Assembly: GCF_058153355.1 (NCBI RefSeq)
Contig: NZ_CM177019.1
Direction: 5' to 3' (one strand)
DNA: 64,000 nucleotides
Of this stretch, positions 6,220 to 43,494 are shown piece after piece. A program made the position numbers and the translations under genes. The notes under the pieces are model-generated. The model did not search any database and had not been told where the DNA came from. It saw nothing but the letters and a program-made list of their open reading frames with translations. Position 1 is the first letter of the stretch; every line of letters begins with the position of its first letter.

Positions 6220-9200
6220 TGTCGCCGAGACACTAGATCCTTTGCGCTTGCCCTTACAGGGCGAGCGCCTGATTGAAGCCTCTGCCGGCACAGGCAAAAC
6301 CTTTACGATTGCGGCGCTCTATTTGCGCCTGTTACTTGGACTAGGCGGTTCTGCCGCCTTTCCCCGCCCGCTGACCGTTGAAGAACTGCTGGTGGTGACC
6401 TTTACCGAGGCTGCCACGGCAGAATTGCGCGGTCGTATCCGTAGCAATATCCACGAGTTGCGCATCGCCTGTCTGCGTGAAACCACCGACAATCCACTGT
6501 ACGAACGCCTGCTGGAAGAGATCGACGATAAAGCGCAAGCCGCGCAGTGGTTGTTGTTAGCCGAACGGCAGATGGATGAAGCGGCAGTCTTTACTATTCA
6601 CGGTTTTTGCCAGCGCATGCTCAACTTGAATGCCTTTGAATCCGGCATGCTGTTTGAGCAGCAGCTGATTGAAGATGAGTCTCTGCTACGCTACCAGGCC
6701 TGCGCCGATTTCTGGCGTCGCCACTGCTACCCGCTGCCGCGTGAAATTGCCCAGGTGGTCTTTGAAACCTGGAAAGGGCCGCAGGCGTTGCTGCGCGATA
6801 TTAATCGTTATCTGCAAGGCGAAGCACCGGTTATCAAAGCACCGCCGCCCGATGATGAAACGCTGGCTTCCCGCCACGCGCAAATTGTGGCGCGTATTGA
6901 TACGGTAAAACAGCAGTGGCGCGACGCAGTGGGTGAACTGGATGCGCTGATCGAATCTTCTGGTATTGATCGACGCAAGTTTAACCGTAGCAATCAGGCT
7001 AAATGGATCGAGAAGATCAGTGCCTGGGCAGAAGAAGAGACCAACAGTTATCAGTTACCGGAGTCGCTGGAAAAATTCTCTCAGCGTTTCTTAGAAGATC
7101 GCACGAAAGCCGGGGGGGAAACCCCGCGACATCCACTGTTTGAGGCGATCGATCAACTGCTTGCAGAACCATTGTCGATCCGTGATCTGGTGATCACCCG
7201 CGCATTGGCTGAGATCCGCGAAACAGTAGCGCGTGAAAAACGCCGCCGTGGCGAATTGGGTTTTGATGACATGTTAAGTCGGCTCGATTCCGCGCTGCGT
7301 AGCGAAAGCGGCGAGGTGTTGGCAGCGGCGATCCGTACGCGATTCCCGGTGGCAATGATTGATGAATTTCAGGATACCGACCCCCAGCAGTACCGAATAT
7401 TTCGCCGTATCTGGCACCATCAACCGGAAACTGCATTGTTGCTGATTGGCGACCCGAAACAGGCTATATATGCATTCCGTGGAGCGGATATCTTCACTTA
7501 TATGAAGGCGCGTAATGAAGTTCACGCGCACTACACCTTAGACACCAACTGGCGCTCAGCACCTGGAATGGTGAACAGCGTGAATAAGCTTTTCAGCCAG
7601 ACTGATGACGCGTTCATGTTTCGCGAAATACCATTTATTCCAGTGAAATCAGCCGGCAAAAATCAGGCGTTACGTTTTGTATTTAAAGGTGAAACGCAGC
7701 CTGCGATGAAAATGTGGCTGATGGAAGGCGAAAGCTGCGGCGTTGGCGATTATCAAAGTACCATGGCGCAGGTATGTGCTGCGCAAATCCGCGACTGGCT
7801 ACAAGCCGGACAGCGGGGCGAAGCGTTGCTGATGAACGGCGACGACGCGCGTCCGGTGCGTGCTTCGGACATCAGTGTGCTGGTGCGCAGCCGCCAGGAG
7901 GCCGCTCAGGTGCGCGATGCCTTAACGCTGCTGGAAATCCCTTCCGTTTACCTTTCGAACCGCGACAGTGTTTTTGAAACTCTGGAAGCGCAGGAGATGC
8001 TTTGGCTGTTGCAGGCGGTGATGACACCAGAACGTGAGAACACCCTGCGCAGTGCGCTGGCAACGTCAATGATGGGGCTGAATGCGCTGGATATTGAAAC
8101 GCTGAATAATGACGAACATGCGTGGGATGCGGTAGTCGAAGAGTTCGATGGTTATCGGCAAATCTGGCGCAAACGTGGCGTTATGCCGATGCTGCGGGCG
8201 CTGATGTCGGCGCGTAACATTGCAGAAAACTTGCTGGCAACAGCAGGCGGTGAGCGGCGTCTTACCGATATCTTGCATATCAGCGAATTGCTACAAGAAG
8301 CCGGAACGCAGCTGGAAAGTGAACATGCGCTGGTACGCTGGTTATCGCAACATATCCTCGAGCCAGACAGTAATGCCTCCAGCCAACAAATGCGTCTCGA
8401 AAGTGATAAACATCTGGTGCAGATTGTCACGATCCACAAATCGAAAGGGCTGGAATATCCATTGGTCTGGCTGCCGTTTATCACCAATTTCCGCGTCCAG
8501 GATCAGGCGTTTTATCACGATCGCCACTCGTTTGAGGCTGTTCTGGATCTTAATGCTGCGCCAGAAAGCGTCGACCTCGCGGAGGCCGAACGTCTGGCGG
8601 AAGATCTGCGTTTGCTTTACGTGGCGCTGACGCGTTCGGTTTGGCATTGCAGTCTCGGCGTTGCACCGCTGGTGCGCCGTCGTGGCGATAAAAAAGGTGA
8701 CACCGACGTCCACCAAAGTGCGCTCGGGCGTTTGCTGCAAAAAGGGGAACCGCAAGATGCGGCAGGGCTTCGCACCTGTATTGAAGCGTTATGCGATGAT
8801 GATATTGCCTGGCAAACGGCACAAACTGGTGATAACCAGCCCTGGCAGGTTAATGATGCTTTAACTGCAGAACTGAATGCGAGGACGCTACAACGATTGC
8901 CCGGCGATAACTGGCGTGTCACCAGCTACTCCGGTTTGCAGCAGCGTGGTCACGGTATCGCTCAGGATCTGATGCCACGGCTGGATGTTGATGCCGCAGG
9001 CGTGGTCAGCGTCGTTGAAGAACCGACGTTAACACCGCATCAGTTCCCGCGTGGTGCGTCACCAGGGACGTTTTTGCACAGTTTGTTTGAAGACCTCGAT
9101 TTTACCCAGCCGGTTGACCCGAACTGGGTACAGGAAAAACTGGAACTCGGCGGCTTTGAATCGCAGTGGGAACCAGTGTTGACCGAGTGGATCACGGCTG

Positions 9201-9754
9201 TCCTCCAGGCACCTCTCAATGAAACGGGTGTTAGCCTGAATCAGCTTTCCGACCGCGATAAACAGGTGGAGATGGAGTTTTACCTGCCGATTAGTGAACC
9301 GCTCATCGCCAGCCAGCTTGATGCACTAATTCGCCAGTTTGATCCGCTATCCGCTGGCTGCCCGCCGCTGGAGTTCATGCAGGTACGCGGCATGTTAAAA
9401 GGCTTTATCGACCTGGTATTCCGCCACGAAGGGCGTTATTACCTGCTCGACTATAAATCCAACTGGCTGGGTGAAGACAGTTCGGCTTATACCCAACAGG
9501 CTATGGCAGCGGCGATGCAGGCACACCGCTATGATCTGCAATATCAGCTTTATACCCTGGCGCTGCATCGTTATCTGCGCCATCGCATTGCTGATTACGA
9601 CTATGATCGTCACTTTGGCGGCGTTATCTATCTGTTCCTGCGTGGCGTTGATAAAGAACATCCGCAACAAGGGATTTACACAACCCGACCCAACGCCGGG
9701 TTGATTGACCTGATGGATGAGATGTTTGCCGGTATGACCCTGGAGGAGGCGTAA
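6212..9754 (+). CDS. recB: RecBCD helicase/nuclease beta subunit RecB
   Basis: 1180 aa from [10 protein letters not shown]; Walker A motif GTGKTF; start overlaps the ptrA stop; UvrD-like helicase plus C-terminal nuclease region. Confidence 0.95.
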
Positions 9755-11580
9755 TGAAATTGCAAAAGCAATTACTGGAAGCTGTGGAGCACAAACAGCT
9801 ACGCCCGCTGGATGTGCAATTTGCCCTGACCGTGGCGGGAGATGAACATCCTGCCGTCACCCTCGCGGCAGCCCTGTTAAGCCACGACGCCGGGGAAGGG
9901 CATGTCTGTTTACCGCTCTCACGACTGGAAAATAACGAGGAGTCACATCCGCTGTTAGCAACCTGCGTCAGCGAAATTGGTGAGTTACAAAATTGGGAAG
10001 AATGCTTGCTGGCTTCACAAGCGGTCAGCCGGGGAGATGAACCAACGCCGATGATCCTCTGTGGTGATCGTCTTTATTTGAATCGCATGTGGTGTAACGA
10101 GCGCACAGTGGCACGCTTTTTCAACGAAGTGAATCATGCCATTGAGGTTGATGAAGCTCTACTGGCGCAAACCCTGGACAAACTTTTTCCAGTAAGCGAT
10201 GAAATTAACTGGCAAAAAGTGGCGGCGGCAGTGGCGCTGACGCGGCGGATCTCGGTGATTTCCGGCGGCCCTGGCACCGGTAAAACGACCACCGTAGCGA
10301 AGTTGCTGGCAGCGTTAATTCAAATGGCAGACGGCGAACGCTGCCGTATCCGTCTGGCTGCACCAACGGGTAAAGCTGCCGCGCGCTTAACCGAATCTCT
10401 CGGCAAGGCTTTGCGCCAGTTACCGCTGACCGATGAACAAAAGAAACGCATTCCGGAAGATGCCAGCACTTTGCACCGATTGCTGGGTGCGCAGCCGGGT
10501 AGCCAGCGTTTACGTCATCATGCCGGTAACCCGCTGCATCTTGATGTGCTGGTGGTAGATGAAGCGTCAATGATCGATCTGCCTATGATGTCGAGACTGA
10601 TCGACGCCTTGCCCGATCATGCGCGAGTGATCTTTCTCGGCGATCGTGATCAACTGGCCTCGGTTGAGGCTGGGGCTGTGCTGGGCGATATCTGCGCTTA
10701 TGCCAACGCGGGCTTTACCGCCGAGCGTGCCGGGCAGTTGAGCCGCCTGACGGGAACTCACGTTCCGTCAGGAACTGGCACAGAAGCGGCATCTTTGCGC
10801 GACAGTCTCTGCCTGCTGCAAAAAAGCTATCGTTTCGGCAGCGATTCTGGCATTGGTCAGTTAGCTGCGGCGATCAACCGTGGTGATAAAACGGCAGTGA
10901 AAACCGTTTTTCAGCAGGATTTTACTGATATCGAAAAACGGCTTTTACAGAGCGGCGAAGACTATATTGCGATGCTTGAGGAGGCTCTTGCGGGTTACGG
11001 GCGTTATCTGGATCTGCTGCAAGCGCGTGCCGAGCCGGATTTAATCATTCAGGCGTTCAATGAATACCAGCTTTTGTGCGCCCTGCGGGAAGGGCCGTTT
11101 GGCGTGGCTGGATTGAATGAGCGAATTGAGCAGTTTATGCAACAGAAGCGCAAAATTCATCGTCATCCGCACTCACGCTGGTACGAAGGCCGGCCGGTAA
11201 TGATTGCCCGCAATGACAGCGCGCTTGGGTTGTTTAATGGTGATATCGGCATTGCGCTGGATCGTGGGCAGGGGACGCGCGTCTGGTTTGCGATGCCGGA
11301 TGGCAATATTAAGTCTGTGCAACCGAGCCGCCTGCCAGAACACGAAACCACGTGGGCGATGACGGTACATAAATCGCAGGGATCGGAGTTTGACCATGCG
11401 GCGTTGATTTTACCGAGCCAACGCACGCCAGTTGTAACGCGAGAGCTGGTTTACACTGCGGTGACCCGCGCGCGTCGCCGTCTGTCGTTGTATGCCGATG
11501 AGCGCATATTAAGTGCGGCAATCGCCACTCGTACTGAGCGGCGCAGTGGTCTGGCGGCGTTGTTTAGTTCGCGGGAATAA
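9754..11580 (+). CDS. recD: RecBCD helicase alpha subunit RecD
   Basis: 608 aa; Walker A motif GGPGTGKTT; start overlaps the recB stop. Confidence 0.95.
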
Positions 11581-11584
11581 ACGT

Positions 11585-11850
<266 letters not shown>

Positions 11851-13154
11851 CGCTGGTAGTTGTACAACTGCTTTTTGCTCTCGGGCAGTAAATCAATATC
11901 CACCGGGGTAAATCCACGTTCCTGGAACCAGTGAATACTGCGCGTGGTCAGTACAAACAATTTGCTTAATCCGCTTTGCTTCGCCTGAGCGGCAATGCGC
12001 TCCAGCAAAACCTCGCCCCTTGATGAGCTGCGGTAATCCGGGTGAACGGCCACACAGGCCATTTCCCCAATCTTCTCTTCCGGGAACGGATAGAGTGCTG
12101 CGCAGGCAATAGTCGTGTTATCGCGCTGAATAATAGTGAATTTGTCGATTTCCATCTCCAGTTGCTCGCGAGAACGGCGTACCAGAATACCTTGCTGCTC
12201 CAGTGGGCGAATCAACTCCAGAATGCCGCCAATATCGTTGATGGTTGCGCGACGAATTTGCTCGGCGCTTTCCATCACAATCTGCGTACCGATACCGTCA
12301 CGTGAGAACAACTCTTGCAACAGCGCGCCATCTTCCTGGTAACTAATTAAATGACAGCGACGTACGCCGCTGCGGCAGGCTTTCACCGCACCACGCAAAA
12401 AGCGCACCGTACCGGAGTTGTAATCGCCTTTCTCTTCCTGAGCTTCTACCCGTGCTTGTGCTTCGTTAGGGAAAAGCTCGGAGACAATATCGCCGTCGTC
12501 ATTAGTGACGCCCTGTGAAGAGCAAAAACCAATCATCTTTTCAGCTTTCAGTTTGATGGCCAGTTGAGTGGCGATCTCTTCCGAGGTCAGATTAAAGCTC
12601 TCGCCAGTGACTGAAACCGCGACCGGCCCCAGCAGCACTATCGCACCGCTGTCCAGTTGACGATGAATCGCATCTTCGTCAATCCGCCGGATACGCCCGC
12701 TATGGCAGTAATCCACACCGTCATCCACGCCCAGCGGCTGGGCAATAATAAAATTGCCACTGACGACGTTGATATGCGCGCCCTGCAGCGGCGTGTTATT
12801 GAGACTCATCGACAGGCGAGCAGTAATATCCAGTTGCAATGTTCCCGCAGCCTGCTTCACCAGTTCTAGTGTTTTGGCGTCGGTCACGCGTATATTTTTG
12901 TGATATAGCGGTTCGTGGTGATGCGCTGCCAGATTCGCATCGATCTGCGGGCGCGCTCCATAGACCACGACCAGACGGATGCCGAGGCTGTGCAGCAACC
13001 CGATATCATTAACGATACTGGAGAAATTCTCATGCTCAATGGCTTCACCGCCGAGCATGATGACAAACGTTTTTCCCCGGTGGGTATTGATATAAGGAAC
13101 CGAATGGCGGAATCCCTCGACCAACTCGGTTTTACGTTCCTTCACCACGGCACA

Positions 13155-13200
13155 CCTCTTTGCATGATTATTCGTAATTATTGTATTTTTATTCTGTTTT
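13155..13200 (-). promoter_or_regulatory. Putative ArgR operator (ARG boxes) overlapping the argA promoter
   Basis: AT-rich imperfect palindromes (reverse strand: cagaataaaaataca, aattacgaataatcatgca) just upstream of the argA RBS; resembles the ARG box consensus TnTGAATwwwwATTCAnw. Confidence 0.4.
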
Positions 13201-13378
13201 TTCACTGGGTGCAAGTGCAAATTTTACGCATGAGCAACTTTTTTATCAGTAATGCCGTGAATATAAAAAGAATGTTTACCGTTTATTAGATGACAGATTA
13301 TGCGTCTTTCGCTAAAGTTTCCGGTCAAATTAGTCGTTTATTTGTTACACAGCTTAGATTTTTTTGCTCGGGAGATGC

Positions 13379-14632
13379 ATGTCGGGATCCAACACAGCAA
13401 TCAGCCGTCGTCGTTTACTGCAAGGCGCGGGTGCCATGTGGCTATTGAGCGTAAGTCAGGTCAGTCTGGCTGCGGTCAGCCAGGTCGTGGCGGTGCGCGT
13501 CTGGCCTGCGTCCAGCTACACCCGTGTGACGGTAGAATCTAATCGTCAGCTGAAATATAAGCAGTTCGCGTTGAGTAACCCTGAACGCGTGGTGGTGGAT
13601 ATCGAAGATGTAAACCTGAACTCAGTGCTCAAGGGGATGGCGGCACAAATTCGTGCTGATGACCCGTTCATCAAGTCGGCGCGCGTCGGGCAGTTTGACC
13701 CGCAAACCGTGCGGATGGTTTTTGAGTTAAAGCAAAACGTAAAACCGCAGCTGTTTGCCCTTGCTCCGGTCGCCGGGTTTAAAGAGCGTCTGGTGATGGA
13801 TCTCTATCCTGCCAATGCTCAGGACATGCAGGACCCGCTGCTGGCGCTGCTGGAGGATTACAATAAAGGCGATCTCGAAAAGCAGGTGCCGCCTGCGCAG
13901 AGTGGCCCGCAGCCAGGCAAAGCAGGGCGCGATCGTCCGATTGTCATTATGCTTGACCCTGGCCATGGCGGCGAAGACTCCGGTGCGGTGGGGAAATACA
14001 AAACGCGTGAAAAAGACGTGGTATTGCAAATTGCCCGCCGTTTGCGCTCTCTGATTGAGAAAGAGGGCAATATGAAAGTTTACATGACCCGTAATGAAGA
14101 CATCTTCATTCCGTTGCAAGTGCGCGTAGCAAAAGCACAGAAACAGCGTGCTGACTTGTTTGTCTCTATTCATGCCGATGCCTTTACCAGTCGCCAGCCG
14201 AGCGGTTCCTCTGTGTTTGCGCTCTCTACCAAAGGTGCAACCAGTACCGCGGCAAAATATCTGGCGCAAACTCAGAACGCCTCGGACTTGATTGGTGGCG
14301 TGAGTAAGAGCGGCGACCGTTATGTCGACCATACTATGTTCGATATGGTGCAGTCGCTGACCATTGCCGACAGTCTGAAGTTTGGTAAAGCTGTGTTGAA
14401 TAAGCTCGGTAAAATCAACAAGCTGCATAAAAATCAGGTTGAACAAGCCGGGTTTGCCGTGCTGAAAGCGCCTGATATACCCTCCATTTTGGTCGAAACG
14501 GCGTTTATCAGTAACGTTGAGGAAGAACGTAAACTGAAAACGGCAACCTTCCAGCAGGAAGTTGCGGAATCAATCCTCGCAGGGATAAAAGCGTATTTTG
14601 CCGATGGGGCGACGCTGGCGAGAAGGGGATAA
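13379..14632 (+). CDS. amiC: N-acetylmuramoyl-L-alanine amidase AmiC (Tat-exported)
   Basis: 417 aa from [20 protein letters not shown] (twin-arginine signal); AMIN domain and amidase_3 domain; divergent from argA. Confidence 0.93.
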
Positions 14633-14805
14633 TGTTTTTATTTATTCAATGAATTTATATTTCGTTGAATAGATAATATTTACCTGAATATTAGACGTTG
14701 GTTTTGTGACTGATGTCGAATATTTGAATGTCGGCTTGAAAAATAAGCCGACCATCTCTTTAATTAAGCACAATTCCGTGTAATGTATATGCATTAGTTA
14801 ATCAT

Positions 14806-14878
14806 CTTGTAACTGTTAAATCAGGCAAGGCAATGTTTGAAGTAATTATTACTTCTGACGTGCCTTGCCTTTTTTTTT
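14806..14878 (+). promoter_or_regulatory. RAT-like antiterminator target overlapping an intrinsic terminator, in the leader of the antiterminator gene
   Basis: cttGTAACTGttaaatCAGGCAAGGCA resembles the RAT consensus GGATTGTTACTG...GCAGGCAAAACC; stem caggcaaggca / tgccttgcc with nested palindrome gaagtaat-t-attacttc, followed by a run of 9 T. Confidence 0.6.
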
Positions 14879-14889
14879 GGAGCTATGGA

Positions 14890-15714
14890 ATGATCATCGA
14901 AAAAGTCATGAACAATAATTGTGTACAGGCATCGATGAATGGACAGGAGGTTATCATTTCTGGGCCTGGCGTCGGTTACAACAAAAAATATGGAATGTCG
15001 GTCCCTGAGCATCCGGCTAACCGGATTTTTTATGTCAGAAATGAACAAAAAAATAAACTCTACAAATTGATTGAACATGTGGATATTGAGTATGTTTTTG
15101 TTGCCGAAAAAATAGTGCAATATGCGGAGAACAATCTCGAAAAAAATCTCAATCCATCGCTACTATTGATTCTTGCTGATCATATTTCGAATGCAATATC
15201 CCGAGTCGCTTCAGGCATACAAATTAATAATGTTTTCCTTGATGAAATCAAAGCGTTGTACAAAGCAGAGTATGCGATAAGTCGCGATGCATTAACTATC
15301 ATTAATGAGCAATTCAGCGTTCAACTTCCTGATGATGAGATTGGTTTTATAGCATTGCATATTTTAAATAATTATGAAAATTCAGTTGATTATGAATCAG
15401 TACGGATTATTGAGTTGTCGCAAATAATCACGGGGCTTATTGAAGTTGTTTATAACAGAAAGGTGGACAGAAGTTCATTTAATTATTCCAGGTTCATGAT
15501 ACACCTTAAATATTTTTCAAGTCGCGTATTATGCAATGAAAAAATAAAACAGAAAGATATTGGTGATCTCTATGAACAGTTTCTTGAGAAAGACATTCTG
15601 TTACAGCGCGCAATTCATGAAATTGAAAGGTATTTGTACGCCACTTTTAAATATGAATTGATTTTGGAAGAAAAACTATATCTCTCTATTCGCACCAAAG
15701 TATTAATGGACTAA
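14890..15714 (+). CDS. BglG/LicT/SacY-family transcription antiterminator (CAT RNA-binding domain plus two PRD domains)
   Basis: 274 aa from MIIEKVMNNNCVQASMNGQEVIISGPGVGY (typical CAT N-terminus); RBS GGAG about 10 nt upstream; ORF track start at 14833 lies inside the leader hairpin. Confidence 0.85.
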   Translation: MIIEKVMNNNCVQASMNGQEVIISGPGVGYNKKYGMSVPEHPANRIFYVRNEQKNKLYKLIEHVDIEYVFVAEKIVQYAENNLEKNLNPSLLLILADHISNAISRVASGIQINNVFLDEIKALYKAEYAISRDALTIINEQFSVQLPDDEIGFIALHILNNYENSVDYESVRIIELSQIITGLIEVVYNRKVDRSSFNYSRFMIHLKYFSSRVLCNEKIKQKDIGDLYEQFLEKDILLQRAIHEIERYLYATFKYELILEEKLYLSIRTKVLMD

Positions 15715-15745
15715 TTATATATAACATTTATATGAGATAACCCGC

Positions 15746-17326
15746 ATGAAACAAAAGAAAGCCTGGAGTTTTTTTCAGAGCCTGGGAAAGGCATTTATGT
15801 ATCCCATCGCTCTGCTAAGTGTATGTGGCATGATGTTAGGGCTAGGAAGTGGTTTAGCCAGCGATGATATGGCAAAATTAATTCCACTACTGGCTATTCC
15901 CGTAATTAAAACCATTCTTGATTTTATTGTTAGCCTTGGTTTGTTTGCCTTTGTCAATTTACCTGTATTGTTTGCGATAGCTATACCTCTGGGGTTATTA
16001 AAAGAGAAAGAGGATAAAGCCTATGGCGCTTTTTCTGGCTTAATTGGTTTCATGGCGATGCATCTGGGAACGAACTTTTATCTTAAACAACATGACTTAT
16101 TGGTCGCTGCTGATCAAATGTCGACACATGGGCAAACCATTATTCTGGGAATCCAGTCCTACAATACCAGTGTGTTGGGTGGGATTATAGCAGGATTATT
16201 AGTCGCCAGTATGTATAAAAAGATCGTTAACTTACGTATTCCTGAATCATTAGGATTTTATAGTGGCCCACGCCTGGTGCCTATTATTACACTGATTGTG
16301 ATGAGCGGATTTGGTCTGATCATCCCTTTTATCTGGCCGCCATTTTTCAATCTTTTCATGCTCATTGGCCACTGGATTTCAACTTCCGGTCCTGTTGGCT
16401 ATTTTTTCTATGCAGTCGCCGAACGCGTGACGATACCTTTTGGTTTAAATCACCTGGTGACGTCAGTTTTCCGCTTTACCCCCATCGGCGGATCGGCAGT
16501 GATCGGCGGAGAAGAGTATTATGGCACCCTGAACATGTTTATGGCGTACGTCAAAGAGAATGCGGTCATTCCGCTGGATTTGGCGGGGAAAATGGAACAG
16601 GGCAAACTGATGATTCAGTATGGTCTGGCTGGTGCCGCGCTGGCGATGTATCGCACTGCTCATGCTCAAAACAGAAAAGCTATCAAAGCATTGCTTATTT
16701 CCGGGGTGCTTACAGTCATTATTGGCGGCGTCAGCGAACCGATTGAGTTTCTGTTCTTATTTGTCAGTCCACTGCTATTTGTCTTCCATGCTTTTATGAA
16801 TGGATTCGCCAACATGGTCTTGCCATATATGGGCGTGAAGATGGGATTTACTGGCGATCTGATTCAATTTATTAGCTTTGGCGTATTGCGTGGCACAAGA
16901 ACAGGTTGGCCAATAGCGGTGTGTGTCGAAGTGGCCTATTTCTTTATTTATTACTTTGTGTTCCGTTGGACTATTCTCAAATTTAACCTGATGACGGTAG
17001 GCCGTGAAGAGTCCAGTCCTGTCACGCTGAACGCTCATGAGGATACGGCTATAGCGGATATCCCAACGCTTGATAAATCAGAGCTGCAAGCAGCGGAGCA
17101 GATGGTTAAGGCACTTGGTGGTAAAGAGAATATTAAATCCCTGGATAATTGCGTAACTCGTTTACGTTTAACAATCGCAGATATGGGATTGATTGACGAG
17201 GCAGCAATAAAAAGAGCTGGCGGAATTGCGGTTGTTAAACTTGATCAAAATACCCTACAAGTCATTATCGGTACTAAAGTCATCGCCTTGCGTCGGGATA
17301 TGGATAACTACATGGGGATATGCTGA
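15746..17326 (+). CDS. PTS glucose-family EIICB component, MalX-like, no EIIA domain
   Basis: 526 aa; multi-pass EIIC; C-terminal EIIB with phosphorylatable Cys in LDNCVTRLRL; several blocks resemble E. coli MalX as recalled. Confidence 0.88.
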   Translation: MKQKKAWSFFQSLGKAFMYPIALLSVCGMMLGLGSGLASDDMAKLIPLLAIPVIKTILDFIVSLGLFAFVNLPVLFAIAIPLGLLKEKEDKAYGAFSGLIGFMAMHLGTNFYLKQHDLLVAADQMSTHGQTIILGIQSYNTSVLGGIIAGLLVASMYKKIVNLRIPESLGFYSGPRLVPIITLIVMSGFGLIIPFIWPPFFNLFMLIGHWISTSGPVGYFFYAVAERVTIPFGLNHLVTSVFRFTPIGGSAVIGGEEYYGTLNMFMAYVKENAVIPLDLAGKMEQGKLMIQYGLAGAALAMYRTAHAQNRKAIKALLISGVLTVIIGGVSEPIEFLFLFVSPLLFVFHAFMNGFANMVLPYMGVKMGFTGDLIQFISFGVLRGTRTGWPIAVCVEVAYFFIYYFVFRWTILKFNLMTVGREESSPVTLNAHEDTAIADIPTLDKSELQAAEQMVKALGGKENIKSLDNCVTRLRLTIADMGLIDEAAIKRAGGIAVVKLDQNTLQVIIGTKVIALRRDMDNYMGIC

Positions 17327-18501
17327 TGGATGTTTTTAATACTCCTATTTCCCGCAAAGGAACATATTGTACCCAATGGGACTTTTGCGAGGACAGATTT
17401 GGTGTAAAAGATGTATTACCATTCTCTATTTCAGATATGGATCTTCCGATACCGGAAGCTATCATCAGGGCATTAAGAAAACGTCTGGAACACCCGATTT
17501 TAGGGTACAGCCGTTGGCAGCATGATGACTATCTGAATGCGATAGTCAATTGGTATCATCAACAATATAAAACTGAAATCAAACCAGAATGGATCACCTA
17601 TAGCCCAAGCGTGATGTACTCCATTGCTAAAGCAATAGAGTTATTGACATCGCATGGTGATAATATTCTCGTTTTTACACCTGTCTATAATGCATTTTTT
17701 GATATAATTAAACATAGCGAGAGAAATATTCTGACAGCCTCTTTGATTATAAAAAATGAGGGGGGCTACGCTATCAATTGGCAAGATTTTGATCTTAAGA
17801 TTCAAAGCGCAAAGATGGTGTTATTATGTAATCCTCATAACCCGACAGGAACCGTCTGGTCGGAAGAAGAGCTGCATAAAATCGCTGCAAGCTGTGCAAG
17901 ACATAATGTCTGGTTATGTTCAGATGAAATTCACAGTGATTTTGTTTTTAATCGTAGCTTTACATCTGCGCTTAAAATAAAAAAAGAAAAAGTAGTGGTG
18001 TTTAATTCGATATCGAAGACATTTAATGTTCCTGCGCTAACAGGATCGTATATGATTTCAACTGACGATAATTTTAATCATAAGTTCAGAACGATATCAA
18101 GATATCGCGATTTTGTAAACTCCCCATCCGTACTGAATATAATTGCAACTATTATTGCCTATAACGAATGTGAGGGATGGTTAACGTCATTAAAGGCACA
18201 TATTGCCTCTAACATTCAATTCACCCAGCAGTATCTGAACGAAAATACTCCAGAATTGATCGTAAGGCCAGCTGATGGTTGCTATTTTTCGTGGATAGAT
18301 TGCTCTGCTATTGGTTATCCCTTTGATGAATTCTACAGTCGATTAATTCATGAAGGCAAAGTGGGCATTATGGCGGGGAATGTCTATGGAACGGAGGGGG
18401 AGGGCTACCTTCGTCTGAACCTGGCCTGCGGTCGAGAAAAATTATATATGGGGCTTACGCGTCTTGCGAGTGTAATTAAAAATATTAATCAAGGAAAATA
18501 A
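17326..18501 (+). CDS. PLP-dependent C-S lyase of the MalY/PatB family (class I/II aminotransferase fold); alternative start 17320
   Basis: GTYCTQWDF motif near the N-terminus and SISKTFNVPALTGSY with the PLP lysine, both parallel to MalY as recalled; ATG overlaps the PTS stop (TGATG), suggesting translational coupling. Confidence 0.85.
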   Translation: MDVFNTPISRKGTYCTQWDFCEDRFGVKDVLPFSISDMDLPIPEAIIRALRKRLEHPILGYSRWQHDDYLNAIVNWYHQQYKTEIKPEWITYSPSVMYSIAKAIELLTSHGDNILVFTPVYNAFFDIIKHSERNILTASLIIKNEGGYAINWQDFDLKIQSAKMVLLCNPHNPTGTVWSEEELHKIAASCARHNVWLCSDEIHSDFVFNRSFTSALKIKKEKVVVFNSISKTFNVPALTGSYMISTDDNFNHKFRTISRYRDFVNSPSVLNIIATIIAYNECEGWLTSLKAHIASNIQFTQQYLNENTPELIVRPADGCYFSWIDCSAIGYPFDEFYSRLIHEGKVGIMAGNVYGTEGEGYLRLNLACGREKLYMGLTRLASVIKNINQGK

Positions 18502-18503
18502 AA

Positions 18504-19100
18504 ATGAACAGCACGGATCTTATCCATCTCATTAAACATTTTATGCGTAACGAACATAAAGCAGTTGAAGAAGTTATTGATTCTCCCCTTTCGGAGGTCG
18601 CAAATTTAATTAAAGTATTACAGTCTTGTCAGGGGAAAGTTGTTTTTATTGGTGTCGGTAAGTCCGGTATTATTGCCCGAAAACTCGCCGCAACATTTGC
18701 CAGCACTGGAACTCCCTCGTTTTTTGTTCACGGTACTGAAGCCGTACACGGCGATCTTGGGATGGTGGCGAAAGATGATGTTGTTATTCTTATTTCAAAC
18801 AGTGGTGAGACGACAGAAATCCTGGCAACACTACCTAGTCTGAAAAAAATGGGTAATTATTTGATCTCCTTTACCCGCAGTCATCGCTCATCGCTTGCGA
18901 TAAGTTGTGATTTATCCGTTGAAATTCCCGTAAAAAGTGAGGCGGATAATTTAGGTTTAGCGCCGTCATGCTCATCAACAGTCGTTCTGGTTGTTGGTGA
19001 TGCGGTGGCGCTTGCGCTCTCCGAATTGAAAAAGTTTACTCGTGCTGATTTCGGCTTATATCATCCAGGAGGTGCGCTCGGTATTAAAGCAAACTCATAA
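18504..19100 (+). CDS. Stand-alone SIS-domain sugar-phosphate isomerase, similar to the KpsF/GutQ catalytic domain, without CBS domains
   Basis: 198 aa; motifs VVFIGVGKSGIIARKLAATFASTGTPSFFVH and ILISNSGET resemble the SIS domain of arabinose-5-phosphate isomerases; starts 2 bp after the lyase stop with RBS AAGGAAAA. Confidence 0.8.
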   Translation: MNSTDLIHLIKHFMRNEHKAVEEVIDSPLSEVANLIKVLQSCQGKVVFIGVGKSGIIARKLAATFASTGTPSFFVHGTEAVHGDLGMVAKDDVVILISNSGETTEILATLPSLKKMGNYLISFTRSHRSSLAISCDLSVEIPVKSEADNLGLAPSCSSTVVLVVGDAVALALSELKKFTRADFGLYHPGGALGIKANS

Positions 19101-19170
19101 TTTTAGAATATAAAACAGTAACCGGTCACGCCATCTTTTGGGGTGGCGTTCATTGATGTGAGTGTCAGCT

Positions 19171-20118
19171 ATGAAAAACGTTCTGGTCACCGTTCCCAGC
19201 TTTTCAGCGCGTTGTGTTTCTGCCAGCAAGCTGCTAAGAGAAAATCATTTTAACCTTATTATCAAGAATAATGTGGAGCATCTGGTTAAATCAGAATCCA
19301 CAGTATTACGAGAATCTATTTGCGCAGTCATTGCCGGAAAAGATTGTTATCAAGCGGATACGTTATCGCGACTACCAGGAGTGAAAATAATATCGAGATT
19401 CGGGACAGGGATTGATAATATTGATCTTCATACGGCTCGACAATCAGGTATTGTGGTCAATAATGCTGTTGGGATTAATTCAAATGCAGTCGCGGAATTT
19501 ATCATTGGTCTTATTTTTGCGAGCATGAGAAATATCCCCGGTAGCTATCATGCAATGCAAAATGGTTATTGGGGCGAGTCGCATGGCTGCGAGTTACAAG
19601 GTAAACGTATTGGCCTGCTTGGCTATGGCAATATTGGCAAAACACTGGCGAAAAGGTTATCTGGTTTTGATGTTGAGCTTTTAGCTTTTGACAAACAACC
19701 CGATTTCCAGGCCGCAGGCAAAGATGGAGTTCAGTTCGTATCAATTGAAGATATCTTTATGCAGTCTCATGTCATCATCGTTCTTTTGCCATTTTCTCCG
19801 GAGCTGGAGAACTTCATTAGTCATAAATATTTGTCGATGATGCGCAATGGTGCTCTTATCATCAACGCCGCAAGGGGAAAGTTGCTGGATGAGGGTGCTT
19901 TACTTCAGGTAATTGAAGAACGAAATGTTTTTGCAGCACTGGATGTGTTTAGCTCTGAACCGCTAGCGCAATTTAGCCCATTGCTACATGCCAGGAATAT
20001 CATTACAACGCCGCATATTGCGGCCGCCACCGTTGAGTCATACCAGCAAACCGGGATATACGTTGCCAGGTCGATAATAGATTTCTTTGCAGGAAGGGAG
20101 ATAAAAAACGTGCTGTGA
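19171..20118 (+). CDS. D-isomer-specific 2-hydroxyacid dehydrogenase family protein (NAD-binding)
   Basis: Rossmann motif GLLGYGNIGKTLAKRL; family hallmarks of catalytic Arg, Glu and His appear present; ORF track offers a GTG start at 19162. Confidence 0.8.
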   Translation: MKNVLVTVPSFSARCVSASKLLRENHFNLIIKNNVEHLVKSESTVLRESICAVIAGKDCYQADTLSRLPGVKIISRFGTGIDNIDLHTARQSGIVVNNAVGINSNAVAEFIIGLIFASMRNIPGSYHAMQNGYWGESHGCELQGKRIGLLGYGNIGKTLAKRLSGFDVELLAFDKQPDFQAAGKDGVQFVSIEDIFMQSHVIIVLLPFSPELENFISHKYLSMMRNGALIINAARGKLLDEGALLQVIEERNVFAALDVFSSEPLAQFSPLLHARNIITTPHIAAATVESYQQTGIYVARSIIDFFAGREIKNVL

Positions 20119-20143
20119 GGTCAGCTAAGGAAGATTTCAGGTA

Positions 20144-20177
20144 CAAAAAAACCGCAATCTGTGAAACACATTGCGGT
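20144..20177 (-). terminator. Intrinsic terminator of the tRNA-fMet operon; also the right boundary of the accessory cassette
   Basis: Hairpin accgcaat...attgcggt with a run of 7 T on the minus strand. Confidence 0.7.
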
Positions 20178-20196
20178 TTATCAGCATCATAAGTGT

Positions 20197-20273
<77 letters not shown>

Positions 20274-20316
20274 TCACCGTACTGCTTTACTTCATCAAAT
20301 TTTGATTGGTTGCGGG

Positions 20317-20393
<77 letters not shown>

Positions 20394-24271: not shown

Positions 24272-24462
24272 GGTACTCCTCGGCTTGATGCACCGATCGT
24301 GACGCAAAATTCACTTCGATACAAGGAGAGTGCTAACCATCAGAATTATCTGGATATCCTGGCGAAGCCGCGTCAGTAACATATGCTGAATAGTGTTAGG
24401 CGTTAATTTTAGCCTGTTAATCAATACTATTAAGATTTATTAATCGCTTTAAGGAGAAGATG

Positions 24463-24690
24463 ATGAAAAAGACTGCCGCAATTATTTCTGCCTGTATGCT
24501 GACTTTTGCCCTGAGCGCCTGTTCCGGTTCGAACTATGTGATGCACACCAATGACGGACGTACCATCGTCTCTGACGGCAAACCACAGACTGATAACGAT
24601 ACCGGTATGATTTCGTATAAAGACGCTAATGGCAACAAACAGCAGATCAACCGTACCGACGTGAAAGAGATGGTCGAACTGGATCAGTAA
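24463..24690 (+). CDS. ygdI: Small lipoprotein YgdI (DUF903)
   Basis: 75 aa with lipobox LSAC. Confidence 0.85.
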
Positions 24691-24706: not shown

Positions 24707-24912
24707 AAAAAAAAGCACCGCAATTAGGCGGTGCTACATTAATCACTATGGACAGACAGGGTAAATGTACAGGAAGTGAAAAAAGGTAGCTTTGCTACCA
24801 TGGTCTGAATCGCAGACCAATTGCAAACACAACAACACAACATCACAACCGTAAGCCAAAAGTTCACCAGAACACGCATTCCGATAAAACTTTTCGTTCC
24901 GGCTCAGGAAGT
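24707..24912 (-). ncRNA. gcvB: GcvB small regulatory RNA, divergent from gcvA
   Basis: Minus-strand sequence from acttcctgagccggaacgaaaag through the GU-rich region gttgtgatgttgtgttgttgtgtttg to the terminator agcaccgcctaattgcggtgcttttttt matches GcvB as recalled. Confidence 0.9.
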
Positions 24913-43082: not shown

Positions 43083-43449
43083 CGTCGACAGGGAGTCAGA
43101 CAACGAAGTGAACATCAGGATGATGACACTTCTGAAGGACACACCAGGAGGGTGTTTCAGGGAAAGGCTTCTGGATGAAGCGAAGAGGATGACGCAGGAC
43201 GCGTTAAAGGACACCTCCAGGATGGAGAATGAGAACCGGTCAGGATGATTCGGTGGGTCAGGAAGGCCAGGGACACTTCAGGATGAAGTATCACATCGGG
43301 GTGGTGTGAGCAGGAAGCAATAGTTCAGGATGAACTATTGGCCGCAAGGCCAGAGGAAAAGTTGTTAAGGATGAGCAGGGAGCAACAAAAGTAGCTGGAA
43401 TGCTGCGAAACGAACCGGGAGCACTGTGAATACAGTGCTCCCTTTTTTT
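43083..43449 (+). ncRNA. csrB: CsrB, the CsrA-sequestering sRNA
   Basis: About 367 nt with many repeated GGA-containing motifs (caggatg, aaggaca, aggatga); terminator ccgggagcactgtgaatacagtgctccc plus T run; location between syd and yqcC. Confidence 0.92.
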
Positions 43450-43494
43450 ATTCCTGCTATCCTTCGCGGCAGTTTTTCTTATTGAGGTTGCTTT

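What the first reader, a model, noticed from the sequence alone, without database searches (positions are those of the whole stretch)
14640..20140. AT-rich five-gene accessory cassette between amiC and the tRNA-fMet array: antiterminator, MalX-like PTS, MalY-like C-S lyase, SIS isomerase, 2-hydroxyacid dehydrogenase
Seen in the sequence: between the amiC stop (14632) and the tRNA operon terminator (20144) lie five tightly packed same-strand genes (gaps of 31, -1, 2 and about 70 bp) that look clearly more AT-rich than the flanking core genes. Established knowledge: the products fall in the BglG/LicT antiterminator, glucose-family PTS EIICB, MalY/PatB C-S lyase, KpsF/GutQ-type SIS and D-2-hydroxyacid dehydrogenase families. 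From memory of K-12, amiC directly abuts the met tRNA genes, so this would be strain-specific, although no integrase or flanking direct repeats are present. Inference: the gene set suggests uptake and phosphorylation of a sugar or sugar conjugate, isomerisation of the sugar phosphate, an NAD-dependent redox step and a PLP-dependent elimination. That combination is not a textbook pathway and may be a new catabolic or signalling module.
Basis: partly seen in the sequence, partly recalled or inferred. Interest (0 to 1): 0.82.

Follow-up and report, generated by a model that had tools for sequence, protein, structure and literature searches.

The report
Known ExPEC "malX" PTS operon (paf)
The five AT-rich genes between amiC and the initiator-tRNA genes are real, but they are the long-known "malX/PAI marker" sugar-transport operon of extraintestinal pathogenic E. 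coli (pafR-pafP-c3407-c3406-c3405 of strain CFT073), whose sugar substrate is still unknown.

Summary
Five intact same-strand genes lie at 14890-20118, with gaps of 31, -1, 2 and 70 bp. G+C is 0.40 against 0.52-0.53 in the flanks. The family assignments are correct, K-12 has an empty site, and there is no integrase and no flanking repeat.

The novelty claim fails. The same five genes sit next to amiC in CFT073, where the block is published as c3405-c3410 of PAI-CFT073-metV. The standard ExPEC "PAI/malX" PCR primers match it exactly. Its first two genes are called pafR and pafP, and pafRP mutants are listed as attenuated in mouse UTI. The SIS protein is c3406, identical to PDB 5UQI/5VHU; I recall it as the arabinose-5-phosphate isomerase of Mosberg 2011.

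The cassette is present in 1688 of 5426 complete E. coli genomes, and 3734 have the K-12-type junction. It also occurs in E. whittamii, Atlantibacter (same locus) and Citrobacter. A four-gene core without the dehydrogenase occurs in Enterobacter and Enterococcus termitis.

I add a conserved leader: a RAT antiterminator site (14806-14830) overlapping an intrinsic terminator (14824-14878). All five genes are under purifying selection (dN/dS 0.03-0.11).

The substrate remains unknown. PTS-MalY gene pairs are widespread, which hints at sugar-amino-acid conjugates. Verdict: already known; low interest.

The parts
14730..14752 (+). Hairpin downstream of amiC; likely the amiC terminator and the left edge of the cassette's regulatory region
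   Evidence: Terminator-like site. Fold dG -13.3, z -3.9. Conserved in CFT073.
14806..14830 (+). RAT-like antiterminator target (CUUG-UAA-CUG-UUAAAU-CAG-G-CAAG) in the operon leader
   Evidence: Sequence. It is the only match in the window, with 0 expected by chance. All 7 pairs are paired in 9 lineages from E. coli to Enterococcus, with one compensatory G-C to A-U change. The resemblance to the LicT/BglG RAT consensus is from my own knowledge.
14824..14878 (+). Intrinsic terminator (stem 14824-14869, then U9) whose 5' arm overlaps the 3' half of the RAT; it ends 11 nt before the pafR start
   Evidence: Fold dG -30.4, z -4.0. Equivalent hairpins plus U-runs occur in Citrobacter, Atlantibacter, Enterobacter and Enterococcus, with different stem sequences (dG -26 to -28, z -4 to -8). 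The leader is at least 95% identical in 1687 of 1688 E. coli carriers and occurs once per genome.
14890..15714 (+). pafR-type BglG/LicT-family PRD transcription antiterminator (274 aa)
   Evidence: NCBIfam LicT 227.7 bits, below the 300-bit equivalog cut-off. PDB LicT PRD, CAT-PRD1 and GlcT matches. The orthologue has CAT_RBD + PRD Pfam domains. 97.8% aa identity to CFT073. Three of the four LicT PRD histidines are kept (H98, H157, H205); the fourth is Arg268.
15746..17326 (+). pafP-type glucose-family PTS EIICB permease (526 aa), the 'malX' virulence marker; it has no EIIA domain
   Evidence: TIGR02004 PTS-IIBC-malX 536.6 bits, below the 632.2 cut-off. PtsG structures at E 1e-67. EIIB motif NCVTRLR, Cys469. 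The RPAi forward primer site at 15591-15612 has 2 mismatches. dN/dS 0.025.
17326..18501 (+). MalY/PatB-family PLP-dependent C-S beta-lyase / class I aminotransferase-fold enzyme (391 aa; c3407 type)
   Evidence: TIGR04350 368.2 bits, above the 340 cut-off. Best PDB match is E. coli MalY 1D2F, E 1e-85. PLP-lysine motif SISKTF, K231.
18504..19100 (+). SIS-only KpsF/GutQ-type sugar-phosphate isomerase (198 aa; c3406 type)
   Evidence: 6 substitutions relative to PDB 5UQI/5VHU, which is 100% identical to the CFT073 protein. KdsD SIS domain 2XHZ at E 1e-40. TIGR00393 191.8 bits, below the 203.7 cut-off, because the CBS pair is absent.
19171..20118 (+). D-isomer-specific 2-hydroxyacid dehydrogenase, PGDH-like (315 aa; c3405 type); an accessory part of the cassette
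   Evidence: TIGR01327 210 bits, below the 454 cut-off. PDB PGDH 1WWK at E 2.5e-48. GYGNIG, AARG and TPHIA motifs present. Absent from the Enterobacter and Enterococcus versions and broken in Atlantibacter.
20145..20179 (-). Terminator of the tRNA-fMet operon (stem 20149-20158 / 20170-20179, U-run on the - strand); the same hairpin closes the cassette on the + strand
   Evidence: dG -18.6, z -4.2 on the - strand. Conserved in CFT073, where a 14-nt tRNA 3' remnant and the T6SS island follow it.
20197..20383 (-). Two tRNA-fMet genes (20197-20273 and 20307-20383) forming the right border
   Evidence: ARAGORN, Rfam. K-12 and the closest genome have three copies.

Best explanation
Identity. This is a divergent allele of the already described paf / c3405-c3409 operon. 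It is the amiC-proximal, integrase-less part of what is called PAI-CFT073-metV, and it is the target of the ExPEC 'PAI (malX)' marker PCR.

How it most likely works.
(1) Regulation. Transcription starts in the AT-rich spacer after the amiC terminator and normally stops at the leader terminator (14824-14878). When the permease is busy phosphorylating its sugar, the PRD antiterminator PafR is left unphosphorylated on PRD1. It then binds the RAT hairpin (14806-14830), which overlaps the terminator's 5' arm, and allows read-through into pafR-pafP and the three enzyme genes. This is an autoregulated Bgl/Sac-type circuit.
(2) Transport. PafP is an EIICB protein without EIIA, so it probably takes phosphate from EIIA-Glc (Crr), as its paralogues PtsG and MalX do. 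It would deliver a phosphorylated sugar or sugar conjugate.
(3) Enzymes. The MalY-like PLP enzyme, always encoded directly behind the permease, acts on that product or on its amino-acid moiety (beta-elimination or transamination, giving a 2-oxo acid). The SIS-only isomerase interconverts arabinose-5-P and ribulose-5-P, linking the sugar part to the pentose-phosphate pathway. The optional D-2-hydroxyacid dehydrogenase reduces or oxidises the 2-oxo / 2-hydroxy acid.

Basis of each step. Shown here: locus identity, gene families, the RAT/terminator anatomy and its conservation, and purifying selection. Shown by others: attenuation of pafRP mutants in mouse UTI. From my memory of Mosberg 2011: the A5P isomerase activity of c3406. 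Inferred: the EIIA partner, the order of enzymatic steps, and the nature of the substrate, which is unknown.
For: Identity:
- The same five genes in the same order lie next to amiC in CFT073, at 93-98.5% aa identity.
- PMC2831201 places c3405-c3410 in PAI-CFT073-metV. BEN2908 'GR 19' lists the same five ORFs.
- The RPAi primers published as 'PAI, AF003742, 930 bp' match CFT073 pafR and pafP exactly, 922 bp apart.
- pafR is described as encoded on the metV island, and pafRP mutants are listed as attenuated in bladder and kidney.
- The CFT073 SIS protein is identical to PDB 5UQI/5VHU. The Mosberg 2011 title is cited.

Regulation:
- RAT plus overlapping terminator, conserved with compensatory changes in 9 lineages including Enterococcus.
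- The leader is more conserved than the coding sequence and occurs once per genome.
- PafR has the CAT + PRD architecture and three conserved phosphorylatable histidines.

Functionality:
- All ORFs are intact. dN/dS is 0.025-0.11 at dS 0.14-0.45 against the CFT073 allele.

Functional linkage:
- The PRD-PTS-MalY-SIS order is kept in Escherichia, Citrobacter, Atlantibacter, Enterobacter and Enterococcus termitis.
- A PTS EIICB gene lies directly upstream of a MalY-family gene in about 59 of 80 loci from several phyla.
Against: - No substrate is known, and none can be derived from sequence.
- Glucose-family EIICB permeases phosphorylate hexoses or hexosides, whereas the one reported enzymatic activity is on a pentose phosphate (A5P/Ru5P). 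The chemistry therefore does not yet close.
- No glycoside hydrolase or phosphatase is encoded.
- The fourth LicT-type PRD histidine is Arg in PafR, so HPr-dependent control may differ from LicT.
- From my memory of the Baum 2014 abstract, no in-vitro condition induced the paf promoter, and PafR overexpression changed many unrelated genes. That fits a sensory role as well as a catabolic one.
- The dehydrogenase is dispensable in other genera.
- I could not read the primary papers (Mosberg 2011, Baum 2014, Lloyd 2009).
Confidence: 0.85

Rival explanations
1. The locus is mainly a sensory device, a Bgl-like sensor. PafP senses a host-derived sugar without feeding a dedicated pathway, and PafR antiterminates or otherwise controls virulence, biofilm and motility genes elsewhere in the genome. 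The three enzyme genes are then secondary.
For: A review reports that PafR expression alters virulence, biofilm and metabolism genes and inhibits biofilm and motility, and that pafRP mutants are attenuated (PMC8882828). No hydrolase gene and no obvious complete pathway is present.
Against: The only close copy of the RAT/terminator in 1688 carrier genomes is the operon's own leader (also for the window). The three enzyme genes are under strong purifying selection. The PTS-MalY(-SIS) order is conserved across phyla, which argues for a metabolic unit.
Confidence: 0.2
2. The cassette's main role is to provide an extra arabinose-5-phosphate isomerase, a third paralogue beside KdsD and GutQ. This would boost Kdo supply for LPS or capsule during infection, and the PTS merely couples its expression to a host signal.
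For: The SIS protein is closest to KdsD (NCBIfam E 4e-58; PDB 2XHZ E 1e-40). [quoted passage not shown]' (title). A review treats it as an LPS-precursor enzyme (PMC4470864). The K-12 gut operon likewise joins a PTS, a dehydrogenase and the API GutQ (my own knowledge).
Against: The same four-gene core exists in Enterococcus termitis. The closest SIS-only homologues outside the enterobacteria are in Firmicutes, such as Companilactobacillus, Lactiplantibacillus and Mammaliicoccus. These make no Kdo, so the ancestral role cannot be LPS synthesis. This explanation also leaves the invariable PTS-MalY pairing unexplained.
Confidence: 0.1
3. It is a recently acquired, tRNA-targeted mobile pathogenicity island specific to this strain or to uropathogens.
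For: Low G+C (0.40 vs 0.52). It abuts the 3' end of a tRNA gene. It is absent from K-12. In the literature it is counted as part of PAI-metV.
Against: There is no integrase and no flanking repeat. It is present in 31% of complete E. coli genomes as a clean presence/absence polymorphism against the K-12 junction (1688 vs 3734 of 5426). It has deep allelic divergence (dS up to 0.45). It occupies the same locus in E. whittamii and in the genus Atlantibacter. In CFT073 the tRNA 3' remnant lies beyond the cassette, flanking only the T6SS island.
Confidence: 0.04
4. It is a silent, decaying remnant with no current function.
For: It is AT-rich and so a likely H-NS target (inference). From memory, expression was not detected in vitro. 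The dehydrogenase ORF is broken in one Atlantibacter genome.
Against: All five ORFs are intact here and in CFT073. dN/dS is 0.025-0.11. The leader is highly conserved. A mutant phenotype in mice is reported.
Confidence: 0.03

Closest known systems
paf / c3405-c3410 segment of PAI-CFT073-metV in E. coli CFT073 (pafR, pafP = 'malX' PAI marker, c3407, c3406, c3405)
   Same: Same five genes, order, strand and position next to amiC. 93-98.5% aa identity. The same leader RAT/terminator. The SIS protein differs at 6 of 198 residues from PDB 5UQI.
   Different: In the window the cassette abuts the tRNA-fMet genes directly. In CFT073 a type VI secretion island with a 14-nt tRNA remnant is inserted between them. 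The allele is about 6% divergent at the nucleotide level, and the marker-PCR primer sites are mismatched.
malX-malY operon of E. coli K-12 (MalI-repressed EIICB + beta C-S lyase)
   Same: An EIICB permease of the same subfamily is followed directly by a MalY-family PLP enzyme. MalX is the best NCBIfam model for the permease and MalY (1D2F) the best PDB match for the lyase. Neither has an EIIA domain and neither has an established physiological substrate (the latter from my own knowledge).
   Different: They are paralogues, not orthologues: about 41% (MalX) and 36% (MalY) identity as reported for the BEN2908 copy, and the permease scores below the MalX cut-off. Control is by a PRD antiterminator and RAT instead of the LacI-type MalI (cluster 2). 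The paf cassette has extra SIS and dehydrogenase genes.
bgl operon of E. coli and sacPA/licS/ptsG systems of B. subtilis (BglG/SacT/LicT/GlcT antitermination)
   Same: A CAT-PRD1-PRD2 regulator, a RAT hairpin overlapping an intrinsic terminator in the leader, and a cognate EII permease encoded in the same operon.
   Different: There is a single RAT upstream of the regulator gene and none between regulator and permease (31-bp gap). The fourth PRD histidine is replaced by Arg. No phospho-glycosidase is encoded.
gut (srl) operon of E. coli K-12: glucitol PTS + sorbitol-6-P dehydrogenase + GutQ
   Same: A PTS operon that also encodes a dehydrogenase and an arabinose-5-phosphate isomerase whose role in the pathway is not obvious (from my own knowledge of Meredith & Woodard).
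   Different: A different PTS family (Gut rather than Glc). The dehydrogenase is a short-chain type rather than a D-2-hydroxyacid type. GutQ has CBS domains. No PLP enzyme is present, and regulation is by GutM/SrlR.
MurP-MurQ N-acetylmuramic acid pathway
   Same: A glucose-family EIIBC permease plus a SIS-domain enzyme that removes a three-carbon acid substituent (D-lactate) from a sugar 6-phosphate. This is a conceptual precedent for a 'sugar conjugate in, sugar phosphate plus C3 acid out' scheme.
   Different: The SIS protein here matches MurQ only weakly (E about 3e-7) and KdsD strongly (E 4e-58). MurQ needs no PLP enzyme.

Membership tests
paf / c3405-c3409 operon ('malX PAI marker' locus) of ExPEC | Same five genes, order and chromosomal position (after amiC) as in CFT073 | tested here: met
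   collinear, 93-98.5% aa identity; one 8.4-kb alignment at 93.8% nt identity.
paf / c3405-c3409 operon ('malX PAI marker' locus) of ExPEC | Amplified by the RPAi 'PAI' primers (AF003742, 930 bp) | tested here: inconclusive
   The primers match CFT073 exactly, 922 bp apart. In the window the homologous sites carry 2 mismatches (forward) and more than 3 (reverse). It is the same locus, but this allele would probably be PCR-negative.
BglG/LicT/SacY family PRD antiterminators | N-terminal CAT RNA-binding domain followed by two PRDs | tested here: met
   The match covers LicT profile positions 1-269 of 273. PDB CAT, CAT-PRD1 and PRD1-PRD2 structures match. Pfam CAT_RBD + PRD in the orthologue.
BglG/LicT/SacY family PRD antiterminators | Conserved phosphorylatable histidines in PRD1 and PRD2 | tested here: inconclusive
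   The equivalents of LicT H100, H159 and H207 are present (H98, H157, H205). The H269 equivalent is Arg268.
BglG/LicT/SacY family PRD antiterminators | RAT target overlapping an intrinsic terminator upstream of the regulated genes | tested here: met
BglG/LicT/SacY family PRD antiterminators | Membership of a named equivalog (LicT, GlcT, BglG) | tested here: not met
   All scores are below the curated cut-offs (227.7 vs 300; 178.6 vs 320; 105.3 vs 322). It is a distinct subfamily.
Glucose-family PTS EIICB (MalX subfamily) | EIIC domain plus C-terminal EIIB with the phosphorylatable cysteine; no EIIA | tested here: met
   (NCVTRLR, Cys469). Pfam PTS_EIIC + PTS_EIIB in orthologues.
Glucose-family PTS EIICB (MalX subfamily) | Orthology to K-12 MalX (score above the TIGR02004 / PRK10110 cut-offs) | tested here: not met
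   536.6 vs 632.2 and 525.9 vs 665. K-12-type malXY loci form a separate group at 40-47% identity.
MalY/PatB C-S lyase family (TIGR04350) | Score above the family cut-off; PLP-binding lysine | tested here: met
   368.2 vs 340. SISKTF aligned to MalY SGSKSF.
MalY/PatB C-S lyase family (TIGR04350) | Beta C-S lyase activity | not testable with these tools
   This needs enzymology. A MalY homologue of L. sakei is reported as an amino-acid racemase (title of PMC5845896), so activity cannot be assumed.
KpsF/GutQ arabinose-5-phosphate isomerases | SIS domain plus tandem CBS domains (about 320 aa) | tested here: not met
   198 aa, matching only KdsD profile positions 36-201 of 328. TIGR00393 191.8 bits, below 203.7. 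It is a SIS-only variant.
KpsF/GutQ arabinose-5-phosphate isomerases | A5P <-> Ru5P isomerase activity | not testable with these tools
   Reported for the CFT073 orthologue according to the title of Mosberg 2011 and my memory of that paper. The orthologue is identical to PDB 5UQI/5VHU. The window protein differs at 6 residues.
D-isomer-specific 2-hydroxyacid dehydrogenases | Rossmann GxGxxG motif and the catalytic Arg/His region; family-level similarity | tested here: met
D-isomer-specific 2-hydroxyacid dehydrogenases | Being 3-phosphoglycerate dehydrogenase SerA (as RefSeq names it) | tested here: not met
   TIGR01327 210 vs 454; PRK11790 150.5 vs 404. The RefSeq name 'phosphoglycerate dehydrogenase' overstates what is known.
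tRNA-associated integrative genomic island | Integrase gene and direct repeats derived from the tRNA 3' end at both borders | tested here: not met
   No integrase ORF. No border repeats. In CFT073 the tRNA remnant flanks only the T6SS part.

The most novel reading that the evidence does not exclude
The paf cassette is one branch of a very widespread but functionally unassigned gene pair: a PTS permease followed by a MalY/PatB PLP enzyme. The pair is found in Enterobacterales, Bacilli, Clostridia, Actinobacteria and alphaproteobacterial MAGs. Elsewhere, MalY-family genes accompany Lac- or Fru-family PTS genes and M24/M42 aminopeptidases.

The most novel reading still open is that these systems import sugar-amino-acid conjugates, for example O- or S-glycosyl serine/cysteine or related glyco-amino acids from host glycoproteins, urine or diet. 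They would phosphorylate the sugar and release it by PLP-dependent beta-elimination (sugar phosphate + pyruvate + ammonia). In the paf branch, the SIS isomerase and the 2-hydroxyacid dehydrogenase would then process the two products. This would be a class of PTS substrate and a catabolic logic not yet described, and it would explain the cassette's fitness effect in the urinary tract.
Probability: 0.15. Interest if true: 0.65.

Novelty: already known. Interest (0 to 1): 0.22.

Why it matters
As a discovery it does not matter much. The locus has been PCR-typed in thousands of ExPEC isolates as 'malX/PAI'. It has been deleted in CFT073 and partly characterised biochemically and structurally.

Three points from this analysis have some practical or conceptual value.
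1. The marker is not part of a mobile pathogenicity island. It is an old, integrase-less operon at amiC-metV, shared with E. whittamii and Atlantibacter and related to an Enterococcus operon. 'PAI marker' is therefore a misnomer.
2. Divergent alleles such as this one are mismatched to the standard primers. PCR surveys may therefore under-count carriage outside phylogroup B2.
3. The conserved RAT/terminator leader gives a ready-made reporter for finding the inducer. The substrate of this operon, and of the whole MalX-MalY class, is still an open question.

Tried and rejected
1. I tried to read the primary papers: Mosberg 2011 (DOI and PMC3133213), Lloyd 2009 (DOI), Baum 2014 (PMC4187875) and Lloyd 2007 (PMC1855899). 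None is held. Statements about their content therefore rest on titles, secondary citations and my memory, and are marked as such.

2. Literature searches for c3406/c3407/c3408/c3409, 5UQI/5VHU and RPAi returned almost only irrelevant hits.

3. I looked at the neighbourhoods of the closest SIS-only homologues in Firmicutes for substrate clues. In Lactiplantibacillus the gene sits by a GAT-family PTS with aldolases; in Mammaliicoccus it sits with a PfkB kinase and an MFS transporter. These contexts differ from each other and from the paf cassette, so no substrate could be inferred.

4. A column-wise covariation count for the terminator was abandoned because the 3' arms of distant lineages do not align in register. 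I folded each lineage separately instead.

5. The simple terminator scan missed both the leader terminator and the tRNA terminator because their loops exceed 8 nt.

6. I considered MurQ-type etherase and FrlB-type deglycase identities for the SIS protein. As family assignments these are rejected: MurQ matches at E about 3e-7, KdsD at E 4e-58.

7. I considered SerA, PdxB or GhrB identity for the dehydrogenase. All scores are far below the cut-offs.

8. Recent tRNA-integrase-mediated acquisition was rejected.

9. The structure prediction and fold search tools were not used, because solved structures of the same or close proteins already exist.

Full report
**1. What is in the sequence**

Between the amiC stop (14632) and the first tRNA-fMet gene (20197-20273, - strand) lie five + strand ORFs. 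A 99.5% identical RefSeq genome annotates them the same way:
- PRD antiterminator, 14890-15714
- PTS EIICB, 15746-17326
- MalY/PatB protein, 17326-18501
- SIS-only KpsF/GutQ protein, 18504-19100
- D-2-hydroxyacid dehydrogenase, 19171-20118

G+C is 0.402 for 14633-20196, against 0.529 and 0.516 in the flanks. GC3 is 0.34-0.45, against 0.58 in amiC and 0.55 in mltA.

NCBIfam and PDB sequence searches confirm all five family assignments. Key residues are present: the EIIB cysteine in NCVTRLR, the PLP lysine in SISKTF, and the GxGxxG, Arg and His motifs of the dehydrogenase.

K-12 has only 73 bp between amiC and metV, and that spacer is unrelated in sequence to the cassette ends. There is no integrase ORF, and the only border repeat is the duplicated tRNA gene. 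One correction: the window has two tRNA-fMet genes, not three.

**2. It is a known locus**

A megablast of the cassette against 5426 complete E. coli genomes finds it in 1688 of them, nearly always once and on the chromosome. The K-12-type empty junction is found in 3734. This is a clean presence/absence polymorphism.

In the reference uropathogen CFT073 the same five genes lie directly next to amiC, followed by a type VI secretion cluster. Amino-acid identities to the window are 97.8, 98.5, 95.7, 97.0 and 92.7%.

The literature describes this block in several ways:
- Bryant et al. describe c3405-c3410 as a 'PTS system, maltose/glucose specific' gene set inside PAI-CFT073-metV. It is retained in all four UPEC genomes studied, in E2348/69 and in SMS-3-5 (PMC2831201).
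- A 2026 paper on strain BEN2908 lists the same five ORFs as 'GR 19': PGDH-like, GutQ-like, MalY-like, MalX-like and BglG-like (PMC12928451).
- A review states that pafR is a regulator encoded on the metV island. It lists pafRP and pafP mutants as attenuated in mouse bladder and kidney (PMC8882828).
- The primer pair used world-wide as the ExPEC 'PAI' or 'malX' marker (GGACATCCTGTTACAGCGCGCA / TCGCCACCAATCACAGCCGAAC; AF003742; 930 bp; PMC4654559) matches CFT073 exactly. It runs from the 3' part of the antiterminator gene into the permease gene, 922 bp apart.
- The CFT073 SIS protein is 100% identical to the chain of PDB entries 5UQI/5VHU. The window protein differs at six positions.
- Mosberg et al. 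[quoted passage not shown] From memory, it shows that this protein (c3406) is a CBS-less A5P isomerase.

I could not open the primary papers.

**3. Anatomy added here: the leader**

The 257-bp spacer after amiC contains three elements.
- A hairpin at 14730-14752, probably the amiC terminator.
- A 25-nt element at 14806-14830, CUUG-UAA-CUG-UUAAAU-CAG-G-CAAG. It has the architecture of a LicT/BglG RAT site (the consensus is from my own knowledge).
- A strong hairpin at 14824-14869 followed by nine U residues, ending 11 nt before the pafR start codon (dG -30.4 kcal/mol, z -4.0).

The 3' half of the RAT is the 5' arm of the terminator. This is the classical mutually exclusive arrangement.

The same arrangement is present upstream of the orthologous operon in CFT073, E. 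whittamii, two Citrobacter species, Atlantibacter, two Enterobacter species and Enterococcus termitis. All 7 RAT pairs are paired in all 9 sequences, and one pair changes G-C to A-U on both sides in three of them. Each lineage has its own terminator stem sequence but keeps a -26 to -28 kcal/mol hairpin plus a U-run.

Within E. coli the 87-nt leader is at least 95% identical in 1687 of the 1688 carriers. The cassette as a whole is only 90-95% identical in 1544 of them. The leader occurs once per genome and is not annotated.

PafR keeps three of the four phosphorylatable histidines of LicT; the fourth is arginine. This supports an autoregulated Bgl/Sac-type antitermination switch. From my memory of the Baum 2014 abstract, PafR can act as an antiterminator, which fits.

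**4. Is it functional?**

Between the window allele and the CFT073 allele, dS is 0.14-0.45 and dN/dS is 0.025-0.11 for all five genes. All are under purifying selection.

**5. History**

The cassette is not a typical tRNA island.
- It lacks an integrase and border repeats.
- In CFT073 a 14-nt remnant of the tRNA 3' end (TGGTTGCGGGGGCC) lies after the cassette's distal hairpin and before the T6SS genes. The T6SS island inserted later at the tRNA, and 'PAI-metV' is composite.
- At least 595 genomes have the dehydrogenase gene directly next to the tRNA, as the window does.
- The five genes occupy the same amiC-metV position in E. whittamii and in Atlantibacter hermannii, where the dehydrogenase ORF is broken. 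In Citrobacter they lie elsewhere.
- A four-gene version without the dehydrogenase occurs in Enterobacter at another locus. It also occurs in Enterococcus termitis, whose permease is 71% identical to the window's and whose RAT is nearly identical.
- The nearest SIS-only homologues outside the enterobacteria are in Firmicutes.

Together with the low G+C, this points to an old transfer between Firmicutes and Enterobacteriaceae. Long residence followed, with repeated loss or replacement by homologous recombination in the flanks.

The flanks themselves are unusually divergent. amiC has dN 0 but dS 0.37 against CFT073. The surrounding core genes are only 95-96% identical to K-12 and CFT073.

**6. 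What it does**

The regulatory logic and the transport step can be inferred with fair confidence from the families: an EIICB without EIIA, hence probably Crr-dependent, as for PtsG and MalX.

The chemistry cannot be inferred. The only reported activity, A5P <-> Ru5P, is on a pentose phosphate, whereas glucose-family permeases take hexoses or hexosides. No hydrolase is encoded.

Comparative data give two constraints.
- The conserved core is PRD-PTS-MalY-SIS. The dehydrogenase is an add-on.
- A glucose-family EIICB gene directly precedes a MalY-family gene in about 59 of 80 loci recovered from Enterobacterales, Bacilli, Clostridia, Streptomyces, Varibaculum and alphaproteobacterial MAGs. The K-12 malXY pair, with its LacI-type MalI, is one branch of this group. 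In further loci MalY-family genes sit with Lac-family PTS components plus M24 and M42 aminopeptidases (13 loci), or with Fru-family PTS components (about 10 loci).

A PLP enzyme that cleaves beta-substituted amino acids is thus coupled again and again to sugar PTS permeases, sometimes together with peptidases. This suggests that the transported compounds are sugar-amino-acid conjugates. The 2-oxo acid released by the PLP enzyme would be a natural substrate for the D-2-hydroxyacid dehydrogenase.

This is inference only; I give it about 15%. The rival views are a Bgl-like sensor controlling other genes (about 20%) and an extra A5P isomerase for Kdo supply (about 10%). The first is weakened by the single RAT copy per genome and the selection on the enzyme genes. 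The second is weakened by the presence of the core operon in Gram-positive bacteria.

**7. Comparison with known systems, and verdict**

- The locus is a member of the published paf/c3405-c3409 locus.
- Its regulator is a BglG/LicT-family member, but none of the named equivalogs.
- Its permease is a MalX paralogue, below the MalX cut-off.
- Its lyase passes the PatB-family cut-off.
- Its isomerase is a SIS-only variant that fails the KpsF/GutQ full-length criterion.
- Its dehydrogenase is not SerA, despite the RefSeq name.

The rest of the window is ordinary core genome, recC to gudD, with GcvB and CsrB where expected.

Novelty: already known. Interest: low. The residual value lies in the unannotated leader, the marker-PCR mismatch of this allele, and the still unknown substrate.

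Noticed in passing
window 20197-20383: There are only two tandem tRNA-fMet genes (110-bp period). K-12 (metZ, metW, metV) and the 99.5% identical genome 24A16CRGN010 have three. This is presumably a one-unit deletion by recombination between repeats.
   Followed up: partly
window 11785-14632 (argA-amiC) and flanks 1-24600: There is unusually deep synonymous divergence around the cassette. amiC has dN 0 but dS 0.37 against CFT073, and the flanking core genes are only 95-96% identical to K-12 and CFT073. This suggests an old allelic lineage or a divergent Escherichia clade. The phylogroup was not determined.
   Followed up: partly
window 15591-15612, and the homologous reverse-primer site in the permease gene: The standard 'PAI/malX' RPAi primers have 2 mismatches (forward) and more than 3 (reverse) in this allele, although they match CFT073 perfectly. 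PCR surveys would probably score this strain malX-negative.
   Followed up: yes
L002 (CFT073) about 24290-24590, equivalent to window 20180-20196: In CFT073 a 14-nt remnant of the tRNA 3' end (TGGTTGCGGGGGCC) separates the cassette's distal hairpin from the type VI secretion genes. 'PAI-metV' is therefore composite, and the PTS cassette is not the part that inserted at the tRNA.
   Followed up: partly
L012 (Enterococcus termitis) 5481-9762: A Gram-positive genome carries the same PRD-PTS-MalY-SIS operon. Its permease is 71% identical at the amino-acid level to the E. coli one, and its RAT/terminator leader is nearly identical. This is evidence for inter-phylum transfer of the whole regulatory unit.
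   Followed up: partly
L014-L087 (loci from the genome-contig scan): MalY/PatB-family genes are recurrently adjacent to PTS genes of three different families. Glc-type EIICB occurs in about 59 loci. Lac-type IIC/IIA/IIB with M24 (YpdF-like) and M42 (YpdE/FrvX-like) aminopeptidases occurs in 13 loci. Fru-type IIC/IIA/IIB with a large PRD regulator occurs in about 10 loci.
   Followed up: partly
L004/L010 (Atlantibacter hermannii) 8673-9620 of L004: The dehydrogenase gene of the cassette is split into two in-frame ORFs (132 and 119 aa) in this genome, while the other four genes are intact. This is consistent with the dehydrogenase being dispensable.
   Followed up: partly
window 14796-14882: The leader RNA element is not annotated in any of the 1688 carrier genomes (features under the match: none). 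Yet it is more conserved than the coding sequence of the operon.
   Followed up: yes
window 24707-24912 and 43093-43452: GcvB and CsrB sRNA genes sit at their expected core-genome positions. The local G+C dips at 24-25 kb and 32-34 kb correspond to the ygdI/gcvB/gcvA region and the fucP-fucA regulatory region, not to further islands.
   Followed up: yes
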